Positions 881 to 47,592 are shown, counted from the stretch's first letter. The stretch: DNA of 54,608 bases from a virus (IMGVR_UViG_3300013383_000035); one strand, 5' to 3'. A program made the numbers and translations. The notes: a model not told the origin generated them from the sequence alone.

Positions 881-2287
881 TTACTCATTCTCTTTCTTTC
901 CCAACAAAAACTGCATTCCGCCACGCGAACGCCGCTGCGCAACACCGAGATTTTTAAGCAACCCCGAAATCTCTCGCGCCGCAAGTTTTTCCTCCCCCGT
1001 TTCTTCGCAATAACGACCGTAATCGCCGTAAACCTCTTTAAGCGGCACCCAACTACCTGTTTCTTCCGAGGTCGCCGTAGTCCAGCCGCAATCACGCCAC
1101 CAACGGCGCTGTGGGTTGCTGTCATCGCGCATGGCTTCCATGGCCTCGCGCACTTCCTCGCCCAATTCAATGTTGCCGCCGTTATTCATCACTTTCTTAT
1201 ACCCGGCATATATCCAATTGAATATGGCTTGCCGAGACTCGGTTCCCGTCAGTTTCTTGGTTAAAAACGGATCTTTATCTTCCTCCGTCCATTGCCTCCG
1301 CGTTGTATACACGGGCAGTTGCCGCCTATGATACCCGTGGCTGTCATCGGCACTCTCGGGCAAGGCGTTTGTACAGCATAACAGCGGCGGCGCCGCCACT
1401 TGTATCGGGTCTCCGTAGTTCCTGCGCCCCTGAAACATCTCCCCGCTTACAAACCGCTTGAAGTCCCCGCCGCTTATGTCTTTCTCATTCAAATCACCCA
1501 CCAAATTGGCTATTTTGCCGCGCAAAGCCGCTATATTGACCCTCGCATCGCTATCCTTAAACAACTGCCGAGGAGTAAACCGCGAGAAATAACGCGCCCC
1601 GAAAACACCCTCAATAGCCCCGGCCAAAACACTCTTGCCGTTTGACCCCGGGCCTACAAGATAGCATACATACTCAATACGCACCTCATTGCGGTTTATC
1701 AACAACGAGCCGCAAAACAACTGAAAAGCATCCCGAAAATCCTTGTCGGGTATTATCTCTTTGAGCTTCCTGTCCCATAGCAACGATACAGCCCTCGCAT
1801 TATAATCCATATCAATCACTATGTCGCTTACATAACGCCGAGAGAACTCTTTCAATTTGCCGTCTTTGGTATCAAACACCCCGTTTGCAAATATCAAATA
1901 ACGCCTATCGGGCTTATACGCAAATTCACTCATCGAGGACACAGACTCAACACAAATACGAGCAACATCCTTTGGCGCATAGCAACAATATACAGGCCGC
2001 ACTTTCAGCATCGTCATCGCACGCCGAAATACCTCCGAGAAAAACGGAATTGCACTACCCACATCCTCGAAATAGCGCCCGTTATATACATACGCCTGCC
2101 CCGAGTCCCCGAAATATACAAGCGGCTGTTTGGCATCGCGCATAACACATCCGAAAGCATCCGCCATCCGCGCTACCTTTGCCTTGTTTACAAAGCTATC
2201 CTTGCCCCCGAAATAAGGACAAATAACTTCCTTTAATTCCCCCGCAAAATGCGAGGCCACATACTCGTATACAACCGAACTTACCAT
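881..2287 (-). CDS. P4/D5-family SF3 helicase-NTPase (the so-called primase C-terminal domain family)
   Basis: 468 aa with Walker A GPGSNGKS, and a D5_N-like region upstream. The stop lies 25 nt before the Dam start. Confidence 0.75.
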   Translation of the reverse strand: MVSSVVYEYVASHFAGELKEVICPYFGGKDSFVNKAKVARMADAFGCVMRDAKQPLVYFGDSGQAYVYNGRYFEDVGSAIPFFSEVFRRAMTMLKVRPVYCCYAPKDVARICVESVSSMSEFAYKPDRRYLIFANGVFDTKDGKLKEFSRRYVSDIVIDMDYNARAVSLLWDRKLKEIIPDKDFRDAFQLFCGSLLINRNEVRIEYVCYLVGPGSNGKSVLAGAIEGVFGARYFSRFTPRQLFKDSDARVNIAALRGKIANLVGDLNEKDISGGDFKRFVSGEMFQGRRNYGDPIQVAAPPLLCCTNALPESADDSHGYHRRQLPVYTTRRQWTEEDKDPFLTKKLTGTESRQAIFNWIYAGYKKVMNNGGNIELGEEVREAMEAMRDDSNPQRRWWRDCGWTTATSEETGSWVPLKEVYGDYGRYCEETGEEKLAAREISGLLKNLGVAQRRSRGGMQFLLGKKENE

Positions 2288-2288
2288 A

Positions 2289-2471
2289 TTATCCCCATTT
2301 AGACGTAATCTTTAAGACAATCTCATCATCTTCATTCAAACTTAAACCAAAATCAAACCGCTTGGAGGAATAAACTTCTCCGTCAATCTCTATGGCTATA
2401 TCGTTCAGTAGACGTTCATTTAGCCTACTCTGCAAACTTAATATCAAATCATTATACGTTTTCATTGCCAT
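2289..2471 (-). CDS. Hypothetical protein (AT-rich cassette)
   Basis: 60-aa ORF tightly packed with its neighbours. Local base composition is AT-rich. Confidence 0.5.
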   Translation of the reverse strand: MAMKTYNDLILSLQSRLNERLLNDIAIEIDGEVYSSKRFDFGLSLNEDDEIVLKITSKWG

Positions 2472-2701
2472 TCAATTTTAGTTCCTGTAAATTTAGTACT
2501 AATATCATTGCCCAATTCAAACACGTATTCTTCAGTTATTTCAGAACCAAGTTCAAATATTCTAAAGTTACAAGCTAAATAATCTTTCTTAGCTTTCTCT
2601 ATAAATTTAGCAATATCTTCTTTAGACGATACCACATTATAATTTGGAATATGGTCTCCATTTTCCAATGTCAAATAAAGTATTATGTATTTCATTCCCA
2701 A
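2462..2701 (-). CDS. Hypothetical protein (AT-rich cassette)
   Basis: 79-aa ORF that overlaps both neighbours by 10 nt. Confidence 0.5.
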   Translation of the reverse strand: MGMKYIILYLTLENGDHIPNYNVVSSKEDIAKFIEKAKKDYLACNFRIFELGSEITEEYVFELGNDISTKFTGTKIEWQ

Positions 2702-3015
2702 TCAATAGAATTAGTTAAGTTTCGTTCTTCATATACCTCATAGTTGAGAGTGGCTCCGTAAGATTTTCTTAGTTTCCTTATTCTTTTTCTCACGGCAGAT
2801 ACATCTCCATCGATGTATATTTTGCCTGGAAATGGATAATGTTCATTTAATATAGACCGAAATTCTATTCTATAGATAAAATTAGGGTTATTCTGTGTTA
2901 TATGCTCTTGTTTTATATTATCTCTTTTACATATATAATTTTCATAAACATTGTAGAATATACCTACAATAATATCAATTACAAGTAATCCTCCTATTAT
3001 TAATAATGCTATCAT
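2692..3015 (-). CDS. Hypothetical membrane-anchored protein (AT-rich cassette)
   Basis: 107 aa with an N-terminal hydrophobic helix, MIALLIIGGLLVIDIIVGIF. Confidence 0.5.
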   Translation of the reverse strand: MIALLIIGGLLVIDIIVGIFYNVYENYICKRDNIKQEHITQNNPNFIYRIEFRSILNEHYPFPGKIYIDGDVSAVRKRIRKLRKSYGATLNYEVYEERNLTNSIDWE

Positions 3016-3107
3016 ATTAGTTACCTTTTTCTTTTGAATAATACCATATTACTATACTTACATATAATAAAGTAATTAAAGTACCTATTGTAAATCCTAT
3101 AAAAATG

Positions 3108-3335
3108 TCATAGTACATTAAATTTATCTGAGTCAACTTTTTTGACTTCATTAATTTCAACTTTTGAAATATTCTCATCAGAACGTGCAAGAAGCCTAAT
3201 TAAAGGGATAAGTTTTTTTTTACTCTCTAAATCCTTCGCTTCATGTTCATCGTCAATTAGCCAATATTGAAAACCCACGAAAAGCCCACGAAAATCTTCA
3301 AGTTCAGCAGTAACTATGTATTGTTTCATTGTCAT
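3108..3335 (-). CDS. Hypothetical protein (AT-rich cassette, first gene of the leftward operon)
   Basis: 75-aa ORF. Confidence 0.5.
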   Translation of the reverse strand: MTMKQYIVTAELEDFRGLFVGFQYWLIDDEHEAKDLESKKKLIPLIRLLARSDENISKVEINEVKKVDSDKFNVL

Positions 3336-3714
3336 TTAATTAAAATATTATGTACTTCATAATCCCTACTTATTATCCGTGGAGTAGTCATAAACCCCGG
3401 CTTACAACCCTCCCCCCTCATTAAAAAACCAAAAAACCAAACCGCAAATCAAGCCCAAAACCCAATCCGCTTCAACAAAATTACAAGCATCTATCCAATT
3501 TCTCAAACAATTTCCAATTCTTATTTATATTTATAATATTATAATATTATTATATACTATACTAACTATGTATATAGTTAGGATAGTTTCTCGCCTTTCC
3601 TTAAAAATTTTTTTTTAAGGCGAGGACTTTCCCCGAAAAATTCTACACACCTACATATTCATACCATAAGTGATTATAAACTACTTGGTTAGATGTGTGT
3701 AGTTCGGTGTGTAG

Positions 3715-3960
3715 ATTACCCCAAATTACCCCCTTTTATGTACATAAACCTCCCTTTTCACACCAAATTTACCCGATTTTTTGCTCCAAAATCACCCCCC
3801 TTACCACTAAACCCTCCCCTCCCTACAACCCACTCCCAATCCCCTCCCATCTTATTATCGCTTACCCGATTTATCCCCACAAACCAAAACATCCCTCCCC
3901 TTCATTACCTTTCTTATCTTATCTCTCCCACTCCCCCATTTACCCCCTTGCGTAATTATT
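3715..3960. repeat. Strongly G-depleted, C-rich tract on the plus strand, so G-run rich on the minus strand. It has repeated TTACCCGATTT and TTATCCCCA words
   Basis: About 7 G in about 245 nt by eye. The minus strand at 3812-3848 reads GGGAGGGGATTGGGAGTGGGTTGTAGGGAGGGGAGGG. Confidence 0.8.
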
Positions 3961-4385
3961 ACATATAATTATCCCCATTTAACCAATTTTATGAAGCTAA
4001 AACCGCCTTAACTGATTGTAGGTCAACTGGTTACGCCAGAATTTTTGAAAAAAAATTTTGATGGGACGCACCCCAACCCCAAAAAAATCGTTTTTTTTAG
4101 CCCCCCGCACCCCTACTTTTTTTATAAATATCTGAAAATCAATCTATTTGCCTGTGTGTGGCGTCCGCAACCTCCGTCCGAATTTTGCGTGTAAGTGCCT
4201 GAAAATCAGGCAGTTAGCTATTTTAGGGTGTTAAGTGCTTGATTATCAATGTGTTGCGCATTCTCTCACAATCTTCATTACGGCTTATCCGTTTGACTAA
4301 TAGCGTTTTATGTGTTTGTGGTTTAGAAGCCTCTAAATATTTTGGAGGTTGAGTAAATTGAGTAAATCAGGAGTGTGCTGTATTA

Positions 4386-4427
4386 GCTGTTTGCGGTTTG
4401 CTGTTTGCTGTTTGCGGTTTGCGGTGA
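4386..4427. repeat. Six tandem heptamers GC(T/G)GTTT
   Basis: gctgttt gcggttt gctgttt gctgttt gcggttt gcggtga read directly. Confidence 0.9.
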
Positions 4428-4659
4428 TTATATAAATTCAGGAGGTGGATATTTCGGCTTGGTTTATTTTGCGTAAGATACACGCAAAAGTTATCCTATC
4501 AGAGTGCTGTTTGTTTATTAGTTAAATATTGTGAAATTGACCGAAAATAATTGCGTAAACATTTGGAGGTTAGAGAAAAAGTTGCGTACTTTGTATGTAG
4601 AAAAAGGAACGGAATTGACCGTTTTAATCAGAACAAAAACTAACTAAATCAAAAATCAA

Positions 4660-5517: not shown

Positions 5518-5723
5518 TAACAAAGTCGGCTCGGCGACTCAAAATAGGCATTAGGCCGGGCGCGTGGGCGGATAAAGATAAATCCGCCCGGTTGTAATAA
5601 CTTAATAAATCCTACTATGATATTAAATTGCCTCCTATCAAGCGCTACAATTGCGCTTTTGGGCGTACCTTTCGCCGCCCGAAACAAAGCGCCGTTTTTT
5701 GGCATGCGAAAAATAATCCCCAC

Positions 5724-5833: not shown

Positions 5834-6139
5834 ATGAAAAATCTGATATATACCACATATACGCCCGATACAAAGGGTACCTTTATAAATGTTTACAAAG
5901 GTACTAAGTATATAACCGTACGCCTCTCAAGCGAATGGCAAGGCGTCCACCCTATTATACTTACATATGCCGTCGAAGACGCGCAACGCGTACTGGCCGA
6001 CATAGAGGCTCGCGAGTACTCATATCGCGCATTTGCAATGGAGTGCCACTACATTAACGATGGAGACTATATGTTGACCATACGGTCATACGGTATAATA
6101 CGGCCACTCCGCATAAAACGAGAGAGAGCCGTCCGATAA
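5834..6139 (+). CDS. Hypothetical protein
   Basis: Track ORF 5792-6139. The GTG at 5792 overlaps the promoter box, so ATG 5834 is preferred. Confidence 0.5.
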   Translation: MKNLIYTTYTPDTKGTFINVYKGTKYITVRLSSEWQGVHPIILTYAVEDAQRVLADIEAREYSYRAFAMECHYINDGDYMLTIRSYGIIRPLRIKRERAVR

Positions 6140-6972: not shown

Positions 6973-7722
6973 ATGGCGGAATATATATATCTACGCGTAT
7001 CAACGCGTAATCAAGACTACGCACAGCAACTTGAGGACATCAAGCGCTACGGCGTTAACCCCAACGAAGTAAATGGCATCGTGGAGGAGCACGAAAGCGG
7101 TGGCACATCCTACGAGGACAGGAAACTTCGCGGTTTGCTTAGCAAATGTAAGCCGGGCGACACAATCTATGTAGGCGACACAAGCCGAATAGGCCGTTCC
7201 CAACTGGATATGATACGGCTTATGGTCAACGCCAAAGAGGCGGGCATCGGCATTGTTGCCTGTAAAAACGGCCTACGGCTTGACGCCGACGACATCGGCA
7301 GCCGTATAACTTTATCTATCCTTGCAATACTGGATGAGGATGAACGCATGCGCATCAAGCACCGTGCGAAAAACACGGTAGAGGCGCACCGCGCCGAAAT
7401 TGCGGCAAAAGGCTACCGCATTACAAAGGCGGGCAACATACAAAATCATATTGGCAACGCGAAAGGCGTTGATATGACGCCCGCGATAAAACAAAGTATT
7501 GTGGCAAAGCAAGAGAGTGCACAACGGTGGCGAGAGGAGTCTTCGGCATACCGCTGGACGCTGGCGAAAAAGGCCGAAGGCAATACAGCCGCTCAGGCCT
7601 ATGCCGAATTAGAGCGACTTATGGACATTGCGCCCGAAACCTTTTGCAAACGCTCGGGAGGCCGAATAAGTCGGTCAACTTTTTACGACTGGTGGCGCGA
7701 AAAAAACGTCTTGAAAGTATGA
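6973..7722 (+). CDS. Small serine recombinase (resolvase/invertase family)
   Basis: N-terminal YIYLRVSTRNQDYAQQ (catalytic Ser motif), then GDTSRIGRS. 249 aa. Confidence 0.85.
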   Translation: MAEYIYLRVSTRNQDYAQQLEDIKRYGVNPNEVNGIVEEHESGGTSYEDRKLRGLLSKCKPGDTIYVGDTSRIGRSQLDMIRLMVNAKEAGIGIVACKNGLRLDADDIGSRITLSILAILDEDERMRIKHRAKNTVEAHRAEIAAKGYRITKAGNIQNHIGNAKGVDMTPAIKQSIVAKQESAQRWREESSAYRWTLAKKAEGNTAAQAYAELERLMDIAPETFCKRSGGRISRSTFYDWWREKNVLKV

Positions 7723-7860: not shown

Positions 7861-9030
7861 CTATCGTTTACCATACAGCACCCAATCAAGCACCCTGCGA
7901 TTAGCATTATCCACTATTTCGTTATCATAGTCGATATAAACATCTGTTATGGCTGCGCCAAATGAATGACCAAGCGCCTGACTTATAACATCCTTTGGAA
8001 TGCCTATGCTGTACGCTATTGTCGCCCAAGAGTGCCGCGCCCAATATAACGTTAAATCGTCTCGTCCGGTATACTTTCTAAGAGCAACCTTTATTGCGTG
8101 GCACATAACATTGCGTGTATACCATATATCCGCGTACGTCAACAATTGACCATGCCTGTCCGATTTGTAGCGGTTTATGATTTCAAGCGCTTCCGGCTCA
8201 ACCTTGATACTATACTGCTTTCGCGTTTTGGCACGCTCATATGCAATCCGCCCGTCCTCCGTTATGCCCGTCAGACCAAGCATATCAACGCCGTTTATTC
8301 CAATAAGCATAAACGACAGCTTGAATGCGTCTAATGCGGTGCGGGCGCGGGCGCTTTTTGGCGATAGCGCCAATATGGCACGTAAAGACTCAACAGACAG
8401 TGAGCGTTTGCGTGTAGGCTTATTACATTTAATTCGCGGTAAGCGGATAAACGGGTCGCGATCTATAAGCTCATTCCGAATAGCTTCATTTACAACCGCA
8501 TGAATGCACTGCATATAATTGGCGATTGTCCCCGAGCTGTAATTCTGATTATGCAGCCAATTCAGATACCGAGACAACAGTGCATAATCAATCTCCTGTA
8601 TAAGCATATGTTCGACCTTCGGTTCATAGCGGATTAGAGTATTAAGGCTAACCCTATAACACGCTTGTGTAGCCTTTCGCAGTCGGCAGCCCATAAAATC
8701 ACGATACAGCAGCACAAACCGATACTCTTTTTCTATCTGTCGTCCAAACAGCTTTTCGGCGACACGTTCTTTGATCTCGGCAACATCCATAAACCTGCCG
8801 CCAGCCTGATAAATTTCCATTTTAAGCGCATCTAACTGCTTTACCCAATAAGCCAAGACGTTGGAGAGACGTTCAAGCCGTTTGGGCGGATTAGGCGACA
8901 ACGCAAGGTCTAAATCAAGTGGAGCGAGATACATATCCGTTGCGAGTTCGGCCTTTCGGCGATTGTTGATAATGCGGATGCGGACGTTATTACAACGCCG
9001 TTCATCACACACGAGTTTCATTGTTATCAT
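7861..9030 (-). CDS. int: Tyrosine integrase (phage integrase family)
   Basis: 389 aa with a SAM-like N-terminal domain. The C-terminus has ARHSWAT ... GHSFGAAITDVYIDY (R..HxxR..Y catalytic pattern). Confidence 0.9.
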   Translation of the reverse strand: MITMKLVCDERRCNNVRIRIINNRRKAELATDMYLAPLDLDLALSPNPPKRLERLSNVLAYWVKQLDALKMEIYQAGGRFMDVAEIKERVAEKLFGRQIEKEYRFVLLYRDFMGCRLRKATQACYRVSLNTLIRYEPKVEHMLIQEIDYALLSRYLNWLHNQNYSSGTIANYMQCIHAVVNEAIRNELIDRDPFIRLPRIKCNKPTRKRSLSVESLRAILALSPKSARARTALDAFKLSFMLIGINGVDMLGLTGITEDGRIAYERAKTRKQYSIKVEPEALEIINRYKSDRHGQLLTYADIWYTRNVMCHAIKVALRKYTGRDDLTLYWARHSWATIAYSIGIPKDVISQALGHSFGAAITDVYIDYDNEIVDNANRRVLDWVLYGKR

Positions 9031-11172: not shown

Positions 11173-11725
11173 CAGCCCCAAAGGAGAGGCAACGGCCTAA
11201 CGGTTGCCACGCGGGTACTGCGATAAAGCCTGCTGATGAGCAAACAGTATGGGTAATACCCGAAAGCTCCGCCGAGGTCGGCGCTCCTTACAAACCAAAT
11301 GACGGCTTATAAGTGAACCGACAATCCGGCCGCTACAATACCGAGCGGCACGACATAGGGAGAGGCGAAAGATACCGGAACAGAGCATTAGGCGTTGACT
11401 TGTCCGCCGACAGCATCCGGGGCAAATGTGCGGAGGGTAGCGCCTCCGCGATGACAAACGGCGGCATAAACAGACGTCAACGGCGAGGTACAGCCCTTGC
11501 CGCCGAGGTATTGACAAAGTATTAGAAACATCATTGGTTTCTATATATATAGCCGCAGTTCGCGTAGGCGTTTAGACCCCATCAGAACCTACTGCGGCAC
11601 TAATACACCCCGAAAGGGTGTGCGAAAGGATAGCCGCACACTGAGACATTGCAGGCTGCTTTGGCAGTTGCTATTCGGAAATTTGGGAACGCTATGCGCG
11701 GTTCAACTCCGCGCCGGGGGACAAA
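11173..11725 (+). ncRNA. Large (about 550 nt) GC-rich structured RNA candidate, possibly two RNAs split near 11540. It ends in a T-arm-like hairpin
   Basis: No credible ORF. Many perfect helices are present (ggcaac/gttgcc, gcggagg/cctccgc, cggcggca/tgccgccg, gccgcagt/actgcggc, gtgtgcg/cgcacac), with GAAA tetraloops and gcgcgg-TTCAACT-ccgcgc at 11696-11714. Confidence 0.45.
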
Positions 11726-11965: not shown

Positions 11966-12243
11966 ACATTTCGATGTGTTCTTATAATTTTCGACTATTG
12001 CCCGTTTAGAGAAATGGGCGTGTCTCTGTCGAATAGAGATTTGTTTCTCTTTGTTATTTTTTTCCGGCATCGCCCGTGAGGATCGTGTCGGTTTTATCGG
12101 GCATGGCAGACCGCAAACGCCGTTGCGAGGTTGTCTCGCTTGTCGAACATCGGCGTTTGTTCGCGGTGCAACTCCGTAAATGCCCACATATGTTATATTT
12201 TTTTGGACAGGTTAAATGCGATAATTACACGTATGAGCAAAGG

Positions 12244-12385
12244 CTTGACGGTCTGCGAAGATAGTCAAGCGATTACGGAGAATTAAAGCACGGATAGACG
12301 GATGCCCGTGCAAGGCTAACGGCAACTTGACAGTATGCGACCGCAGCCTTTTTCGCTGTCTCGGGTTCGACTCCCGAGTTTTCCA
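12244..12385 (+). ncRNA. Purine-loop hairpin (12244-12269) plus a 109-nt tRNA-like modular RNA (12277-12385)
   Basis: End stem GGAGAAT/GTTTTCC, T-arm tcggg-TTCGACT-cccga and a discriminator-like A. Internal hairpins gcacgg/ccgtgc and aaggct/agcctt replace the D and anticodon arms. Confidence 0.5.
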
Positions 12386-12486
12386 CTAAATTAGAGTTCA
12401 TATAGGGTTTATTTTGTTGGTACGCAATGGGCGGATGTTTTTTCCATAGTTTAGTCCGCCTGCGTACCGTTTTCAAATCTTTAATT

Positions 12487-12909
12487 ATGGGGAAGTCAAC
12501 CGTTACGGAAGCCGAGCTTGCATACATTCGCAAAAATGTTGCGACTAAATCCTCGCGCGAAATGCGTATAGCGCTTGGCTTGCAACACTCTTGGCAACTT
12601 CGTTATCGTGCACGTTTGGCGGGAGTGCGGTTACCCAATCGCATACGCCGCAACGAGCATCTGCAACGCCGTTTCACCCAACAGGAAAAAGAGTGGATTG
12701 CGCTTAATTACAAGCGCGTAAGTATTAACTTTATTCGGCAATTTATGGGTATGAGCTGGCGCGTGCTTTATCGGAATTTACACGCAAACGGATATTCTAA
12801 GCAAAAAACACTGCAAACAGCAGAACGAACATACCAACCAACTAATAATCAACAACAAAATGAAAATCGAAACAAAATTCAATCCAAATCAAACAGTTTA
12901 TTGGCTTGA
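12487..12909 (+). CDS. Hypothetical protein
   Basis: Track ORF 12427-12909. The first ATG is at 12487. Confidence 0.5.
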   Translation: MGKSTVTEAELAYIRKNVATKSSREMRIALGLQHSWQLRYRARLAGVRLPNRIRRNEHLQRRFTQQEKEWIALNYKRVSINFIRQFMGMSWRVLYRNLHANGYSKQKTLQTAERTYQPTNNQQQNENRNKIQSKSNSLLA

Positions 12910-13111
12910 AGAAAGCAAGCTCCGCGGACGTCGGGGCAAAGTACAATGGATAAGCGTTTATCCCGATAGTGTACATTATGCCGTTAATGTTGATGATGGC
13001 GATGGTAACGATAAAACCGTTATCAAATACGAGAACGAACTTTACGGCAGTCTCGAAGACATCTTCAACGCCGTCAAGACACTTTTAGACGGCTTGCGTG
13101 AACAGTTTTGA
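12860..13111 (+). CDS. Hypothetical protein
   Basis: 83-aa ORF. Confidence 0.5.
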   Translation: MKIETKFNPNQTVYWLEESKLRGRRGKVQWISVYPDSVHYAVNVDDGDGNDKTVIKYENELYGSLEDIFNAVKTLLDGLREQF

Positions 13112-13114
13112 GTT

Positions 13115-14068
13115 ATGATAGAGCAGACGATATACGGTTTGCCAAACGGCGAATATCACCGTGGTGAGCCGTACAACGGATACCTAAGCAGCAGCCAATT
13201 AAAAGACTATGCGAAGTCTCCGGCCTACGCCAAATGGCACAGAGAGCATCCCGATGACGAAAGCAATAATGCGGCGCTGGCCTTTGGCTCGCTGTTTCAC
13301 GATTGCCTTGCAGCTCTTGCAAGTGGTCAAGGCTTGGATGCTTGGCTTAGTAGCATAGCCGTGTTCGAGCCGCCCGTAAACGACAAAACGGGACAGGCTT
13401 ACGGCGCAACCACTAAGCGCTACACTGACGCCTATGCGGAATTTATCCTCGCCAATGTAGATAGACCGACCGCATCGAGCGAGGATTTGCAGCTTGTGCG
13501 CGAAATGGCTGCGTCTCTGCTTAACGACCATACCGAGACGGGTAAAGCCGTCTTGAAGATGCTTAAATGGGGTAAGCCCGAAGTAAGCCACTTCGTTGAG
13601 TATAAGTATAAAGGTTGCAAATTCAAATGCCGACCCGACCTCGAAACACGCAAAAAAATTGTGGATTGGAAAACCACAAGCCTTGACACTTTTGATGAAG
13701 ATAGCGTCAACCGCGTAATCTTGAAATACGGCTACCACATTAGCGCCGCAATGTATCAGTGGCTTGTTCACGAGATTACCGGCGAATGGAAGTCTTTTTA
13801 CCTCGTACTGGTGAGTAAGCAAGCCCCGCATGACAGCGTAATCGTCTGTATGGACGATTGGGCATACAGGTACATTTCCGAGGCCGAGTATATAGCCTTA
13901 GGCCCCGGCGCCTACGAGTTTGCCAAACTCCGCGACCTACACATTCAATGTGTCGAAAGTGGAGAATACCCTTCCGCCGAGGTGTTTATCGAAAATAAGG
14001 ACGGACTGCCGATAATGAATATCCAGCCGCCGTCCTACGTTACACGAAAGTATATAGACGAGATATGA
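13115..14068 (+). CDS. PD-(D/E)XK recombination exonuclease (RecE / exonuclease VIII-like)
   Basis: N-terminal GLPNGEYH...YLSSSQLKDYAKSP and KCRPDLETRKKIVDWKTT nuclease core. It is translationally coupled to recT. Confidence 0.7.
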   Translation: MIEQTIYGLPNGEYHRGEPYNGYLSSSQLKDYAKSPAYAKWHREHPDDESNNAALAFGSLFHDCLAALASGQGLDAWLSSIAVFEPPVNDKTGQAYGATTKRYTDAYAEFILANVDRPTASSEDLQLVREMAASLLNDHTETGKAVLKMLKWGKPEVSHFVEYKYKGCKFKCRPDLETRKKIVDWKTTSLDTFDEDSVNRVILKYGYHISAAMYQWLVHEITGEWKSFYLVLVSKQAPHDSVIVCMDDWAYRYISEAEYIALGPGAYEFAKLRDLHIQCVESGEYPSAEVFIENKDGLPIMNIQPPSYVTRKYIDEI

Positions 14069-14982
14069 CAGAAGAAGAAACACAACAGCAAACCGCTGAA
14101 ACGCCGCAAGAGCAGCCGCAAACGCAAGCCGTTGCGACCAAGAAAGATGCTTCGCCAGAGCGCACGGCGGAAGCTATTAAGCGCTTGCCCGCCGAACTAC
14201 AGGGCATACGCAACCTCTTCGCCCAGCCGTGGGAGAGTTTCCGCGCCGCTTTCGCCGATGCCAAAGAGGCCGACCGCACAATGCAGCGCGAAATCACCTA
14301 TGCGGCGCAAGCAATGACCGCAAATAACTACCTAATAGATTGTGCGGCCAAATATCCGCAGGACTTTGTAAACGCACTAAAAAATGTTGCACTTAGCGGC
14401 TTGTCGCTAAATCCGACACTCAAACAAGGCTACCTTGTGCCTTTCAAAGGCCGAGTAACCTTTATGCCGTCCTATATGGGGATGGTTGACTTACTTAGCA
14501 ATAACGGCCATATCAAGAAGATAGAGGCGTTTCTCGTGTTCGAGGGCGATGAGTTCTCAATGACGCACGGTACAAGCGAGAGTCTTATCCACAAGCCGAA
14601 TGCTTGGGGTGAGCGCTCCGAAAAGACGTTATTAGGCGGCTATTGGATTGCCGAACTTGCGGACGGCACTAAATTGTTTGACAATATGACTAAGGCGGAA
14701 ATAGACCAAATTAAGATGCGGTCGCCGTCTGTTGCCGGAAAGAAGTCCTCGCCGTGGGATAGCGACTACCTCGCTATGAGTCGAAAGACAGTATTGCGGC
14801 GCGGTTTCAAGTCTCTGCCAAAGGGTGCAATCAGCGATGACCGCATAAAAGTCATTGAAGCCGTTTTTGATTATGACGAAAAGGCCGAACAAGACTGGGT
14901 TGCACGTCAGAAACAAACGAGCAAACGCACAAACGCCGATTTTGATGAGGATGGCGAAGTGCAATACGAAGAAATAAATTAG
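14065..14982 (+). CDS. recT: RecT single-strand annealing protein
   Basis: 305 aa, LSLNPTLKQGYLVPFKGRVTFMPSYMGMVDL is typical of the RecT family. Confidence 0.8.
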   Translation: MTEEETQQQTAETPQEQPQTQAVATKKDASPERTAEAIKRLPAELQGIRNLFAQPWESFRAAFADAKEADRTMQREITYAAQAMTANNYLIDCAAKYPQDFVNALKNVALSGLSLNPTLKQGYLVPFKGRVTFMPSYMGMVDLLSNNGHIKKIEAFLVFEGDEFSMTHGTSESLIHKPNAWGERSEKTLLGGYWIAELADGTKLFDNMTKAEIDQIKMRSPSVAGKKSSPWDSDYLAMSRKTVLRRGFKSLPKGAISDDRIKVIEAVFDYDEKAEQDWVARQKQTSKRTNADFDEDGEVQYEEIN

Positions 14983-14993
14983 GTTGAAATCCC

Positions 14994-15163
14994 TGCGCAA
15001 GAGAGCGCGAAACAGATAGGCGCGACCCGAAAGGGCGTGTTAATGCTATGTGATTGGGCGTATGGTCTAATGTAAGACGACACGCGTATACAGTTAACAT
15101 CTTTGTCAGATGTTTTTAGTCATAAGCTGTGTGTAGATTCGGGTTCAAGTCCCGATGCGCCTT
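14994..15163 (+). ncRNA. Purine-loop hairpin (14994-15024) overlapping a 146-nt tRNA-like modular RNA (15018-15163)
   Basis: End stem AGGCGCG/TGCGCCT, T-arm tcggg-TTCAAGT-cccga, and internal hairpins ccc-GAAA-ggg, gcgtgt/acacgc, gtct/agac and aacatct/agatgtt. Confidence 0.45.
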
Positions 15164-15211
15164 CAGTTTTTATTTTATATTGTTATAGTTTTTTAGTTTA
15201 GTAGCTTTATT

Positions 15212-15382
15212 ATGAAAGAGTTAATTGCAAAAATCTCGGCGTTGTTTGTGGATTTTTCCTCCAACGCCGTAAAGGCCGAAGCCGGAAATAAATCGGCAGG
15301 CGCTCGCGCCCGCAAGGCTTCCCTCGAAATCGAAAAGACTCTGAAGGAGTTCCGCAAGACATCCGTGCATTACGGAGAGTAA
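15212..15382 (+). CDS. Histone H1-like protein, Hc1 family (56 aa, below the ORF-track cutoff)
   Basis: My own translation is MKELIAKISALFVDFSSNAVKAEAGNKSAGARARKASLEIEKTLKEFRKTSVHYGE. The GNKxAGxRARKAS core is typical of Bacteroidota Hc1-like proteins. Confidence 0.6.
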   Translation: MKELIAKISALFVDFSSNAVKAEAGNKSAGARARKASLEIEKTLKEFRKTSVHYGE

Positions 15383-15397
15383 CACGAAGCTCAAAAC

Positions 15398-15457
15398 GCG
15401 GTGCGATGTTCGTTTGGGATGCCGTCATAGGACAGGTTCGAGACCTGTCGCACCGCC
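15398..15457 (+). ncRNA. 60-nt tRNA-like minihelix RNA
   Basis: Perfect 7-bp end stem GCGGTGC/GCACCGC and T-arm gacagg-TTCGAGA-cctgtc, with only 26 nt in between. It lies 15 nt after the hc1 stop. Confidence 0.4.
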
Positions 15458-15494
15458 AGCGTACTCATATAGATGACTGGTTTATTCAACATCA

Positions 15495-15602
15495 CGCCGC
15501 GCGGTCTGCGAAGATAGCTCGGCGTTATTGGACGCCACGGCGACACCCTTTCTTTTCGACATTTCAAAGGGGTGTTTTGCGGTTCGACTCCGCTTGCGTC
15601 CG
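15495..15602 (+). ncRNA. Purine-loop hairpin (15495-15524) plus a 73-nt tRNA-like modular RNA (15530-15602)
   Basis: End stem GGACGC/GCGTCC and T-arm gcgg-TTCGACT-ccgc. A single long arm acacccttt/aaaggggtgt replaces the D and anticodon arms. Confidence 0.5.
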
Positions 15603-15657
15603 CTTAGACATTTGTATAGTTGTTAGAGAATAAGATATTTGGATTAGTTAGATTTGA

Positions 15658-15693
15658 GATGCCGGGTTCGTGAGAATACGGCGTCTTTTTTTT
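15658..15693 (+). terminator. Intrinsic terminator
   Basis: gatgccg / cggcgtc stem followed by T8. Confidence 0.7.
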
Positions 15694-15906
15694 ACACAAC
15701 CAAGCCTAATAGTTAAAATATTATAAAAGTTTTATTATTGTTGGGTTTGTGTGAAATAAAACGATTAACTTTGAGCATCTAAACGGCGCTTGACCTTAGT
15801 CTTTCGCTGCAAAGATATATAGCGAAAGGTTGTCGCGCCCTTCGGGGTGCGTGAATTGAAACGCGATAAGCAAAGTAGGATTTAATTATCAAATTACCTT
15901 TCGCAA

Positions 15907-25197: not shown

Positions 25198-25843
25198 CGA
25201 CCCGATATTCCGTCCTCCTGAAAGGTTGCGGATATGGCTCGCACTGCTGTTTGCCGCCGATGAAAACGGCGAAGTTGTTTTCGGCTTGCGCAGGTTTTCA
25301 CAAAGTATAGGAGTATCCACAAGACAACTTAGAAGTGCGATTAAAGCGTTTTGTGAGAATGGGTATGCGACACACGAAGCGACACACGAAGCGACACACA
25401 TAACACTATGCGACATAGTGTGTTGCGCGGAAGTGCGACACACGAAGCGACACACGAAGCGACACGCCCCAATTCCCGAACCGACACTCCCGAGTATAGT
25501 CGTTTCACGGAGTTTTGTTGCTCCCGAATTTACCGAGGCTTGGGACTTGTGGCTCGACTACCGCAAGGAAACCAAACGCCCCTATAAATCCGAAAAGTCC
25601 GAACGCATCGGATACGAACAATTGATAAAGAAGTCTAACAACGACCCACGGCAAGCGCTGGAAATTGTAAAAAACACAATCGCCAACGGCTATCAAGGTC
25701 TATTCGCGCTTAAAGATGAACCAAAATCAAAACGCAATAATCCCGCTGTCAGAAGCACAGACGACCGCTATACAGCTCTGGAACGAGCAGCCGCTTCAAT
25801 ATTATGCGGCAATGACACCGGCGCCTATCCCGGCAATGATTAA
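25163..25843 (+). CDS. Replication initiator / replisome-organiser-like protein
   Basis: N-terminal winged-helix-like region (RLRIWLALLFAADENGEVVF..VSTRQLRSAI), internal iterons, and C-terminal W..W..YRKE..KPYKS..NGYQGLF domain. Confidence 0.55.
   Translation: MDTITISRETFNDPIFRPPERLRIWLALLFAADENGEVVFGLRRFSQSIGVSTRQLRSAIKAFCENGYATHEATHEATHITLCDIVCCAEVRHTKRHTKRHAPIPEPTLPSIVVSRSFVAPEFTEAWDLWLDYRKETKRPYKSEKSERIGYEQLIKKSNNDPRQALEIVKNTIANGYQGLFALKDEPKSKRNNPAVRSTDDRYTALERAAASILCGNDTGAYPGND
25367..25470. repeat. Iteron array of six copies of GCGACACACGAA (four perfect) flanking a dyad ACACTAT-gcgac-ATAGTGT. Candidate replication origin inside the initiator gene
   Basis: Copies at 25367, 25379, 25391 (partial), 25435, 25447 and 25459 (partial). 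They encode ATHEATHEATH and RHTKRHTKRH. Confidence 0.75.
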
Positions 25844-47501: not shown

Positions 47502-47520
47502 TTAGAATTATTATAACCTG

Positions 47521-47592
47521 TGGCGGTGGCAGGATTCGAACCTGCGACCTACGGGGAATGAACCCGCCGAGCTACCGCTGCTCCACACCACT
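47521..47592 (-). tRNA. tRNA-Met (anticodon CAT) with initiator-like features
   Basis: Cloverleaf drawn by hand: AGTGGTG TG GAGC AGCGGTA GCTC G GCGGG TTCATTC CCCGT AGGTC GCAGG TTCGAAT CCTGC CACCGCC A. It has a 1:72 mismatch and three G-C pairs closing the anticodon stem. No CCA is encoded. Confidence 0.8.

What the first reader, a model, noticed from the sequence alone, without database searches (positions are those of the whole stretch)
12277..15602. Family of tRNA-like modular RNAs that keep the acceptor/T-arm minihelix but replace the D and anticodon arms
Four plus-strand elements (12277-12385, 15018-15163, 15398-15457, 15530-15602) share three features. First, a 6-7 bp stem is made by their own 5' and 3' ends (GGAGAAT/GTTTTCC, AGGCGCG/TGCGCCT, GCGGTGC/GCACCGC, GGACGC/GCGTCC). 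Second, directly 5' of the 3' strand there is a 4-6 bp stem carrying a canonical T-loop heptamer (TTCGACT twice, TTCAAGT, TTCGAGA). Third, one unpaired nucleotide follows the end stem. This is the coaxial acceptor/T-arm half of a tRNA. Where the D and anticodon arms should be there are 0-3 unrelated hairpins, giving lengths of 60, 73, 109 and 146 nt. I could draw no anticodon loop, and no CCA is encoded. The stem sequences differ between copies while pairing is preserved. They sit at cistron borders, about 35 nt after the recT stop, 15 nt after the hc1 stop, and upstream of the 12487 ORF. Possible roles are RNase P / RNase Z punctuation of the early transcript, decoys for tRNA-targeting host defences, or CCA-adding/aminoacylation mimics. 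These roles are speculative.
Basis: partly seen in the sequence, partly recalled or inferred. Interest (0 to 1): 0.7.

Follow-up and report, generated by a model that had tools for sequence, protein, structure and literature searches.

The report
Anticodon-less tRNA mimics in a phage
A temperate gut-bacterial (Bacteroidales-type) phage carries at least five small RNA genes in its early operon that keep the top half of a tRNA but have no anticodon; they are conserved in related phages, are in no RNA database searched here, and probably use the host's tRNA-processing enzymes.

Summary
All four elements have the stated end stems and T-loop heptamers. ARAGORN and Rfam call none of them, even at E<=10. 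A strict scan finds 4 such structures on the + strand against 0.48 expected per window.

Relatives at about 79% nucleotide identity (L002, L149) keep E1, E3, E4 and a fifth element, E0 (11608-11719), with compensatory changes. E2 keeps its end stem and a hairpin there, but not its T-loop sequence.

The reading needs correction. Most members keep a GG-bearing D-loop analogue, so the tRNA elbow is probably retained. E3 is a mini-cloverleaf with a 9-bp end helix and a 4-bp T stem.

E1 and E4 are each preceded by a hairpin carrying the exact 15-mer GGTCTGCGAAGATAG. This is a covarying, often terminator-like hairpin found in at least 57 distinct gut-phage contexts. It is followed on the same strand by a tRNA-like element in 15 of 79 contexts and never on the opposite strand.

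More distant relatives carry similar elements in the same slot. One has an array of four in 920 ORF-free bases. The cultured Bacteroides phage BS-TP2 has them too.

Best reading: non-decoding tRNA mimics cut out of the early transcript by RNase P and 3'-end enzymes. Their function is unknown. This is a new variant of a known kind.

The parts
11608..11720 (+). It has a closing stem CCCCG/CGGGG, a D-like hairpin GTGTGCG-AAAGGATAGC-CGCACAC, two further hairpins, a T arm GCGCGG-TTCAACT-CCGCGC that abuts the 3' strand, then G.
   Evidence: sequence. L002 keeps it. Five pairs have both-sided changes, including the closing stem (C-G to U-A) and the D-like stem.
11552..11598 (+). Conserved hairpin GCCGCAG...CTGCGGC with the loop sequence TTTAGACCCCATCAG, just upstream of E0. 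It probably lies near the 5' end of the early-right transcript.
   Evidence: the stem covaries in L002; a homologous hairpin with a different stem lies at L127 about 1222-1270.
12064..12098 (+). Variant of the conserved hairpin family. The lower stem is CCGGCA/TGTCGG and the top is CGCCCGTGAGGATCG. TTTTATC follows, so it looks like a terminator.
   Evidence: L002 has CCGATGC-CGTCCGTGAGAATAG-CATCGG, with two both-sided changes in the lower stem.
12099..12186 (+). E0b, a candidate sixth element. It has an end stem GGGCAT/ATGCCC, a weak T arm CGCGG-TGCAACT-CCGTA (TTCAACT in L002), then A. Its status is ambiguous.
   Evidence: It is conserved in L002, but RNAalifold prefers a rod in which the 5' strand of the T stem pairs elsewhere. 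L127 has two strong elements with the same TGCAACT loop.
12243..12270 (+). Conserved hairpin. The lower stem is GCTTGAC/GTCAAGC. The top is G.A, then GUCU/AGAU, then a GCGA tetraloop, which together make the exact 15-mer GGTCTGCGAAGATAG at 12250-12264. No T-tract follows. It ends 6 nt before E1.
   Evidence: A-U to G-C in L002; 57 unique IMG/VR contexts, with the lower stem paired in 75-93% of them against about 40% in shuffled controls.
12277..12385 (+). E1. It has an acceptor-like stem, a D-like hairpin GCACGG-AUAGACGGAUGC-CCGUGC, a branched hairpin 12311-12350, a T arm, then A.
   Evidence: L002 shows both-sided changes in the end stem (A-U to U-A), in two T-stem pairs and in the inner hairpin. 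The internal module is almost invariant.
14982..15015 (+). M2 motif, GGTTGAAATCCCTGCGCAAGAGAGCGCGAAACAG, directly after the recT stop and abutting E2.
   Evidence: it is kept in L002 and L149. It also occurs without the E2 body in L123, L125 and L146. In L125 it lies inside a different T-arm element.
15018..15163 (+). E2. It has an end stem AGGCGCG/TGCGCCT, three internal hairpins and a T-arm-like hairpin TCGGG-TTCAAGT-CCCGA. It is the weakest member.
   Evidence: the end stem and a 3' hairpin are kept in L002 and L149, but the T-loop sequence is not.
15398..15457 (+). E3, a 60-nt mini-cloverleaf. It has a 9-bp end helix, a hairpin GUUC-GUUUG-GGAU, a short hairpin, a 4-bp T stem CAGG/CCUG with the loop UUCGAGA, then C.
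   Evidence: three sequences, with an A-U to G-C change at the ninth pair. GTTCGTTTGGGATGCCG is invariant.
15494..15525 (+). Second copy of the conserved 15-mer hairpin (15-mer at 15503-15517). No T-tract follows. It ends 4-5 nt before E4.
   Evidence: L002 and L149 have the variant top CGTCTGTGAAGATAG.
15530..15602 (+). E4. It has an end stem GGACGC/GCGTCC, a single-stranded CACGGCGA, one long hairpin with a U-rich loop, a 4-bp T stem GCGG/CCGC with the loop UUCGACU, then G.
   Evidence: A-U to G-C at the third pair of the end stem in L002 and L149. L127 2639-2717 and 1916-1988 have the same architecture.
15656..15693 (+). Intrinsic terminator that closes the unit. The stem is GAGATGCCG/CGGCGTCTT, the top GGTTCGTGAGAATA belongs to the same hairpin family, and T8 follows.
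   Evidence: partial match to the terminator part of Bacteroides sRNA BTnc231.

Best explanation
The elements are genes for non-decoding tRNA mimics. They lie on the sense strand of the early-right operon of a temperate Bacteroidales-type phage. The operon also encodes a PD-(D/E)XK exonuclease, RecT, Hc1 and RusA.

Each RNA keeps a coaxial acceptor/T helix of about 12 layers capped by a T-loop. Most also keep a GG-bearing segment in the D-loop position, so they probably fold into the tRNA top half with its elbow. The anticodon domain is replaced by lineage-specific hairpins.

Proposed mechanism. Host RNase P cuts at the 5' end of the end stem. RNase Z or 3' exonucleases trim after the unpaired nucleotide, and the CCA-adding enzyme finishes the end. 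This releases stable small RNAs and at the same time severs the early polycistronic transcript at cistron borders. The excised RNA then acts either through its variable module, as a natural 'tRNA scaffold', or by occupying tRNA-binding factors.

Shown here: the structures, their conservation and compensatory changes, the strand bias, the recurrence in the same genomic slot in other phages, and the linkage to a conserved upstream hairpin.

Inferred only: transcription, every processing step, and the effector function.
For: - Excess over chance and confinement to one strand.
- No tRNA, tmRNA or Y-RNA call.
- Both-sided compensatory changes in end stems, T stems and inner hairpins between the window and L002/L149.
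- Acceptor plus T stacks of 11-13 layers in every copy (sequence).
- More distant RecT relatives (about 70% protein identity) carry different elements of the same design in the same slot. L127 has 1443-1582, 1916-1988, 2076-2168, 2270-2385 and 2639-2717. L137 has 530-634, L125 has 576-659 and 5850-5942, and L135 has two.
- Genuine tRNAs occupy the same slot in L125 and L136, which points to descent from phage tRNA genes.
- Rfam's tRNA model matches L021 705-850 with 90 nt in place of the 17-nt anticodon arm.
- Bacteroides phage BS-TP2 has the same layout between the small ORFs of its early operon, unannotated.
- 15 of 79 unique 15-mer hairpin contexts have such an element within 300 nt downstream on the same strand, and none on the opposite strand.
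Against: - There is no expression or end-mapping data.
- Single-sequence folding z-scores are modest.
- Each orthologue set has only 2-3 sequences, so the covariation has little statistical power.
- E2 loses its T-loop in L002 and L149.
- E0b has a competing rod structure.
- E3's minimum-energy fold absorbs the T arm.
- No target complementarity was found within the phage.
- No tRNA-related enzyme was seen among the 20 window ORFs scanned.
Confidence: 0.55

Rival explanations
1. Pure punctuation. The elements matter only as RNase P/Z cleavage signals that cut the early transcript into separate mRNAs, as in the mitochondrial tRNA punctuation model. The excised RNAs would have no function of their own.
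For: - E2 lies 35 nt after the recT stop.
- E3 lies 15 nt after the hc1 stop.
- E0 and E1 flank a small membrane ORF.
- BS-TP2 has elements between consecutive small ORFs.
Against: - L127 has four elements in a 920-nt gap with no called gene, 1832-2755.
- E3 and E4 are adjacent with no ORF between them.
- Internal modules such as E1 12288-12310 and E3 GTTCGTTTGGGATGCCG are more conserved than the scaffolding stems.
Confidence: 0.15
2. Decoys or sponges. Abundant anticodon-less tRNA top halves would soak up host factors that recognise the acceptor end, T arm or elbow. Candidates are defence toxins that modify or cleave tRNA 3' ends, RNase P, the CCA-adding enzyme and EF-Tu.
For: - The elements are the first things transcribed in the early operon, where phage counter-defence functions are usually found (general knowledge).
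- There are several divergent copies per genome, and arrays occur.
- The elbow and minihelix are retained while the anticodon is lost.
Against: - There is no direct evidence.
- Conserved internal modules are not needed for a decoy.
- No cognate defence system was identified.
- G3:U70, the AlaRS minihelix determinant, is absent from every window copy (sequence).
Confidence: 0.15
3. Decaying tRNA pseudogenes. The elements would be relics of phage tRNA genes or of att-site duplications, with no present function.
For: - Genuine tRNAs occupy the same slot in relatives.
- The E2 T-loop has decayed in L002 and L149.
- Many odd 'tRNA-???' calls are seen in other gut phages.
Against: - Compensatory changes keep the stems.
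- The T-loop heptamer is intact in most copies, although the flanking sequence has diverged by about 20%.
- The elements are confined to one strand.
- They lie 2.5-6.5 kb from the integrase, and there are too many of them for att relics.
Confidence: 0.1
4. Ordinary decoding tRNAs that standard tools miss because of introns or very unusual anticodon loops.
For: - Some elements that follow the same hairpin in other phages get ARAGORN calls with 2- or 4-nt 'anticodons', or tRNA-Arg(gcg).
- Rfam calls L021 705-850 a tRNA.
Against: - ARAGORN, which models introns, and the Rfam tRNA model at E<=10 call none of the window elements.
- No internal hairpin has a 5-bp stem with a 7-nt loop. The loops are 4, 5, 12 or 15 nt.
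- The inserts of 26-110 nt are far too short for group I introns, the only intron type known in bacterial tRNA genes (general knowledge).
Confidence: 0.03

Closest known systems
Canonical tRNA and phage-encoded tRNA genes (Rfam RF00005)
   Same: - A 5'/3' end stem abuts a T stem, giving about 12 stacked pairs.
- The T-loop reads UUCRANY.
- An unpaired discriminator follows, often A.
- A GG-bearing segment sits in the D-loop position.
- Like the phage's own tRNA-Met, no CCA is encoded.
- Genuine tRNAs occupy the same genomic slot in related phages.
   Different: - There is no anticodon arm or anticodon.
- The D stem is absent or non-canonical.
- Lengths run from 60 to 146 nt.
- ARAGORN and the Rfam model do not detect them.
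tRNA-like domain of tmRNA
   Same: - An acceptor stem plus T arm is formed by the RNA's two ends.
- The D arm is reduced to a loop.
- The anticodon domain is replaced by other modules.
   Different: - There is no tag reading frame and no pseudoknot ring.
- The elements are much smaller.
- G3:U70 is absent.
- The Rfam tmRNA models score only 14-16 bits, on the T arm alone.
Bacterial Y RNA YrlA and its tRNA-like module (Chen et al. 2014, PMC4201824, title and abstract seen; details recalled)
   Same: - It is a non-decoding RNA that mimics the tRNA acceptor, T and D region.
- It is also found in some phages.
   Different: - In YrlA the RNA termini lie in the Ro-binding stem, so the topology is permuted relative to these elements (recalled).
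- No Rfam match was found, and no rsr (Ro) gene was seen among the ORFs scanned.
Viral and cellular tRNA-like processing modules: MHV68 vtRNA/TMER, and MALAT1 mascRNA (recalled from the literature)
   Same: tRNA-like folds without decoding function that recruit RNase P or RNase Z to excise RNAs from a longer transcript. MHV68 is a viral precedent.
   Different: - These are eukaryotic systems transcribed by Pol III or Pol II.
- They have cloverleafs with a recognisable anticodon-like arm.
- They are not bacterial or phage RNAs.
T4 stable RNAs species 1 and 2 (rnaC, rnaD) in the T4 tRNA cluster (recalled, not checked here)
   Same: Phage-encoded small stable RNAs of unknown function that are co-transcribed with tRNAs and matured by the tRNA-processing machinery.
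   Different: - The phage lineage and the sequences are different.
- Whether they share the minihelix-plus-module design was not tested here.
Engineered 'tRNA scaffold' for recombinant RNA expression (recalled)
   Same: A foreign RNA module replaces the anticodon arm. The tRNA body supplies processing and stability.
   Different: It is a laboratory construct. Here the design would be natural.

Membership tests
tRNA (RF00005 / ARAGORN definition) | Acceptor stem of about 7 bp formed by the 5' and 3' ends and directly stacked on a 5-bp T stem | tested here: met
   Sequence. The stacks are 5+6 (E0), 7+5 (E1, E2), 9+4 (E3), and 7+5 with two mismatches (E4). Compensatory changes were seen.
tRNA (RF00005 / ARAGORN definition) | 7-nt T-loop reading UUCRANN | tested here: met
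   The loops are TTCAACT, TTCGACT, TTCAAGT, TTCGAGA and TTCGACT. The E2 loop is not conserved in L002 and L149.
tRNA (RF00005 / ARAGORN definition) | Anticodon arm with a 5-bp stem and a 7-nt loop carrying U33, the anticodon and R37 | tested here: not met
   ARAGORN makes no call. The Rfam tRNA model gives no match at E<=10. Consensus folds show internal loops of 4, 5, 12 or 15 nt only.
tRNA (RF00005 / ARAGORN definition) | D arm with a 3-4-bp stem and a loop carrying G18 G19 that pairs with the T-loop | tested here: inconclusive
   GG-bearing hairpin loops or single strands sit in the right place in E0, E1, E3 and E4. The stems are 0, 4, 6 or 7 bp. The tertiary contact cannot be tested by sequence.
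tmRNA | tRNA-like domain plus an internal tag ORF and pseudoknots, with G3:U70 | tested here: not met
   ARAGORN finds no tmRNA. Rfam scores are 15.8 and 14.2 bits against gathering scores of 84 and 47. No copy has G3:U70.
YrlA / bacterial Y RNA | Ro-binding stem formed by the termini, plus an internal tRNA-like module | tested here: not met
   Rfam gives no match at E<=10. Here the termini form the acceptor-like stem.
Self-cleaving ribozymes next to phage tRNAs (HDV-like theta, hammerhead, twister, pistol, hatchet) | Match to the family's covariance model or nested pseudoknot | tested here: not met
   There are no Rfam ribozyme hits in 12000-15900. The only ribozyme in the window is a pistol at 5524-5596. 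The 15 nt between the strands of the hairpin's lower stem are too few to hold the P3, P1 and P1.1 helices of an HDV-like fold. The theta descriptor itself was not run.
Intrinsic (Rho-independent) terminator, tested for the 15-mer hairpin | GC-rich hairpin immediately followed by a U-tract | tested here: not met
   The window copies at 12243-12270 and 15494-15525 are followed by GATTAC and TTATTGG, with no T-tract. In other phages 22 of 57 unique contexts do have at least 6 T in 8 nt. One type sits 25 nt after a stop codon. The related hairpins at 12064-12098 and 15656-15693 do have T-tracts.

The most novel reading that the evidence does not exclude
Temperate and other gut Bacteroidales phages may encode a widespread, undescribed class of tRNA-scaffolded small RNAs. 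In this reading the tRNA top half is kept only to hijack host RNase P, RNase Z and the CCA-adding enzyme for excision and stability. The former anticodon domain has been exchanged for effector modules, such as U-rich loops and conserved hairpins, that act early in infection, for example as regulators or counter-defence decoys. A conserved GNRA-capped hairpin (GGUCUGCGAAGAUAG) would form a composite unit with them.
Probability: 0.3. Interest if true: 0.8.

Novelty: new variant of a known kind. Interest (0 to 1): 0.62.

Why it matters
Phage tRNA genes are usually explained by codon usage or by replacing host tRNAs that defence systems cleave. A conserved set of phage tRNA look-alikes that cannot decode points to a different use of the tRNA fold: as a handle for host processing enzymes or as bait for tRNA-binding factors.

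These elements are invisible to tRNA finders and to Rfam. They fill long 'non-coding' gaps in the early regions of gut phages, including a cultured Bacteroides phage, so the idea can be tested directly.

The associated 15-mer hairpin is one of the more sharply conserved short RNA motifs in these phages, and no description of it was found in Rfam or in the literature searched.

Tried and rejected
1. HDV-like theta ribozyme as the identity of the 15-mer hairpin. The GCGAA resembles an HDV J4/2 junction. However, the 15 nt between the strands of the lower stem cannot hold P3, P1 and P1.1, and Rfam has no hit.
2. The hairpin as an anticodon arm supplied in cis, with CUGCGAA as a 7-nt anticodon loop. 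Rejected because variants covary at positions 5 and 10 (U-A to C-G in GGTTCGTGAGAATA and CGTCCGTGAGGATAG). This closes a GNRA tetraloop.
3. A k-turn reading of the G.A. The strand order does not fit.
4. Literature search for the 15-mer: no paper found. Searches for phage tRNA-like RNAs found nothing specific.
5. Viral-contig scans with the E3 core and the E1 core found only the window's own contig, the L002 contig and chance coding matches.
6. A metagenome scan with an E0-type pattern returned only chance hits and genuine tRNAs, so that scan was wasted.
7. A relaxed structure scan had too many false positives to be useful, at 2.55 per simulated window.
8. A search for antisense targets of the six elements within the window found nothing better than 12 nt, with E>=0.2.
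9. AlaRS-type G3:U70 is absent. A HisRS-like G-1:C73 reading of E3 is possible but was not tested.
10. att-site relics: the integrase lies 2.5 kb or more away and there are too many copies.

Full report
**Setting**

The window is a temperate phage of Bacteroidales type. Pfam scans identify these genes:
- a D5_N-type primase at 881-2287(-);
- a serine recombinase at 6973-7722;
- a tyrosine integrase at 7861-9030(-);
- on the + strand, an early operon with a PD-(D/E)XK exonuclease (13115-14068), RecT (14065-14982), Hc1 (15212-15382), RusA, a beta clamp and a C5 methylase.

The closest RecT proteins come from gut metagenome assemblies, and one is labelled Muribaculaceae. The finding lies inside this early operon.

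**Checking the observation**

ViennaRNA recovers the end stem plus T hairpin for E1, E2 and E4. For E3 it prefers a longer end helix. The z-scores are modest, from -1.8 to -3.0.

ARAGORN calls only tRNA-Met at 47520-47592(-). Rfam at gathering score reports that tRNA and a pistol ribozyme at 5524-5596. Rfam at E<=10 over 12000-15900 gives nothing for the elements except a 15.8-bit partial tmRNA match on the E1 T arm.

I ran a strict scan of my own. It required a 5-bp T stem, a TTCRANN loop, and an adjacent 7-nt strand that pairs with a segment up to 200 nt upstream. It finds E1, E2, E3 and one probable chance hit on the + strand, and nothing on the - strand. Simulated windows give a mean of 0.48.

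**More members in the window**

A T-loop search led to E0 at 11608-11719. Its parts, in order, are:
- a closing stem CCCCG/CGGGG;
- a hairpin GTGTGCG-AAAGGATAGC-CGCACAC;
- two more hairpins;
- a T arm GCGCGG-TTCAACT-CCGCGC that abuts the 3' strand.

A sixth candidate, E0b at 12099-12186, has the end stem GGGCAT/ATGCCC and a TGCAACT loop (TTCAACT in L002). The consensus fold prefers a rod that consumes the T stem, so I leave it as ambiguous.

**Conservation**

L002 (IMG/VR, about 79% nucleotide identity across the region) and L149 keep the elements. RNAalifold gives the following.
- E0 has five pairs with both-sided changes. They include the closing stem (C-G to U-A) and the D-like stem.
- E1 together with its upstream hairpin also has five. 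They include the end stem (A-U to U-A) and two T-stem pairs. The internal module is nearly invariant.
- E3 changes A-U to G-C at the ninth pair. This argues for a 9-bp end helix plus a 4-bp T stem, with two small hairpins between them, so E3 is a miniature cloverleaf.
- E4 changes A-U to G-C in the end stem.
- E2 is the exception. Its end stem and a 3' hairpin persist, but the T-loop sequence does not. It reads ATTAAGT in L002 and CGGGG-TTAAG-CCCCG in L149.

With two or three sequences per set, this evidence is supportive but not statistically strong.

**Correction to the anatomy**

The D arm is not simply gone. Directly after the 5' strand, each of these elements has a GG-bearing segment:
- E0: hairpin loop AAAGGAUAGC;
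- E1: hairpin loop AUAGACGGAUGC;
- E3: UUUGGGAU;
- E4: single-stranded CACGGCGA.

Relatives show the same pattern. Examples are CAUGGUGA in the L002 copy of E4, ACUGGCG in L127 2639, and UAAGGAGUAGC loops in L127 2076 and 2270. These segments sit where D-loop G18 and G19 contact the T-loop. I therefore infer that the elbow is mimicked, not just the minihelix. The sum of end-stem and T-stem pairs is 11-13 in every copy, close to the 12 of a tRNA.

**A linked hairpin**

The exact 15-mer GGTCTGCGAAGATAG occurs at 12250 and 15503, a few nucleotides upstream of E1 and E4. In both places it forms the top of a hairpin whose lower stem differs between the two copies.

In 57 unique contexts the seven lower-stem positions are paired in 75-93% of cases, against about 40% when partners are shuffled. 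All pair types occur.

Variants show that the top is itself a structure: G.A, then G.U, then U-A, then two covarying pairs, closed by a GNRA loop. Examples are GGTATGCGAATATAT, CGTCCGTGAGGATAG and GGTTCGTGAGAATA.

A T-tract follows in 22 of 57 contexts. The commonest type sits 25 nt after a stop codon and just before the ribosome-binding site of the next gene, so there it looks like an intrinsic terminator. The two window copies lack a T-tract. The related hairpins at 12064-12098 and 15656-15693 have one.

The hairpin is associated with tRNA-like elements. A strict element lies within 300 nt downstream on the same strand in 15 of 79 unique contexts. It lies upstream on the same strand in 5 of 78, and on the opposite strand in none. 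ARAGORN types almost none of these elements and returns 'tRNA-???' for several.

No paper contains the 15-mer, and Rfam does not match the window copies.

**The wider family**

More distant RecT relatives carry different elements of the same design in the same slot.
- L127 has one upstream of the homologous small membrane ORF, preceded by a hairpin variant. It also has four more within a 920-nt gap with no called gene.
- L137 has a 105-nt element with a proper D arm and a 7-bp stem in place of the anticodon arm.
- L125 and L135 have further examples.
- L125 and L136 carry genuine tRNAs in that slot.

Rfam's tRNA model matches L021 705-850 with 90 nt in place of the 17-nt anticodon arm.

Bacteroides phage BS-TP2 is a cultured temperate phage. 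It has a DUF2693-FD RNA, a T-arm element of about 190 nt, and a hairpin plus an 81-nt element between the small ORFs of its early operon. None of these is annotated.

A scan of representative bacterial genomes found the hairpin-plus-element composite in only three MAGs: Porphyromonadaceae, Paludibacteraceae and Oscillospiraceae.

ARAGORN did not type 120 of them. Some of the longer ones are surely chance.

**Interpretation**

The elements are selected RNA structures on the sense strand of an early operon. They keep exactly the parts of a tRNA that RNase P, RNase Z and the CCA-adding enzyme read, according to established knowledge of those enzymes, and they have lost the part the ribosome reads.

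The most economical mechanism is that they are excised by the host tRNA-processing machinery as stable small RNAs. That excision also cuts the transcript at cistron borders.

Two observations argue that the RNAs themselves matter and are not only cleavage sites. Arrays occur without intervening ORFs, and the internal modules are strongly conserved. What they then do is open. They could be carriers for effector modules. The single-hairpin members, for instance, share U-rich loops. They could instead be decoys for factors that bind tRNA ends. I found no antisense target in the phage and no aminoacylation determinant such as G3:U70.

Every processing step is inferred. None is shown.

**Comparison and verdict**

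The elements fail the defining anticodon-arm test for tRNA. They also fail the tests for tmRNA and YrlA. They resemble the following:
- the tRNA-like domain of tmRNA;
- the viral tRNA-like processing modules of MHV68;
- mascRNA;
- perhaps the T4 species 1 and 2 RNAs, which I recall but did not check.

I rate this as a new variant of a known kind, namely tRNA mimics.

Noticed in passing
window 5524-5596 (+): Pistol self-cleaving ribozyme (RF02679, 58.9 bits against a gathering score of 34.5). It sits directly after a small ORF in the region upstream of the integrase.
   Followed up: no
window 12243-12270 and 15494-15525 (+); L003-L122: Hairpin with the exact 15-mer GGTCTGCGAAGATAG. It is widespread in gut-phage contigs. 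The lower stem covaries, and the top is G.A, G.U, U-A and a GNRA loop. About 40% of contexts look like terminators. It is not in Rfam and was not found in the literature.
   Followed up: yes
window 11552-11598 (+); L002 about 1124-1170; L127 about 1222-1270: Hairpin with the conserved loop UUUAGACCCCAUCAG and a covarying stem. It lies at the start of the early-right unit, just upstream of E0.
   Followed up: partly
window 14982-15015 (+); L123 6356-6388; L125 5874-5910; L146 4472-4499: Conserved motif GGTTGAAATCCCTGCGCAAGAGAGCGCGAAACAG directly after the recT stop. It recurs in other phages without the E2 body, in one case in front of a terminator.
   Followed up: partly
window 12419-12468 (+): Long hairpin GGTACGCA-ATG-GGCGGA...TCCGCC-TGCGTACC followed by GTTTTC, just before the ORF that starts at 12487. 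It is partly conserved in L002 and may be an attenuator or terminator.
   Followed up: no
L003, L014, L021, L090, L139 (BS-TP2 13.15 kb): DUF2693-FD RNAs (RF02926, 60-77 bits) lie in the same early regions as the hairpin and the tRNA-like elements. In L021 one lies only about 40 nt upstream of the hairpin.
   Followed up: partly
window about 2290-4430: A low-GC block with small minus-strand ORFs is followed by C-rich tracts (3390-3990) and short GCTGTTTGCGGTTTGC-type repeats (about 4380-4425). The composition differs from the rest of the phage. This could be an insertion, an att region or an origin.
   Followed up: no
window 47520-47592 (-): The only genuine tRNA, tRNA-Met(CAT). It has no encoded CCA and a mismatch at the 1-72 position, which suggests an initiator-like tRNA.
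   Followed up: partly
L127 1832-2755: A 920-nt gap with no called gene holds four tRNA-like elements in tandem. Two of them have the T-loop variant UGCAACU.
   Followed up: partly
window about 25366-25400 (+): Short tandem GCGACACAC(GAA) repeats, picked up by the loop-relaxed structure scan as a false positive.
   Followed up: no
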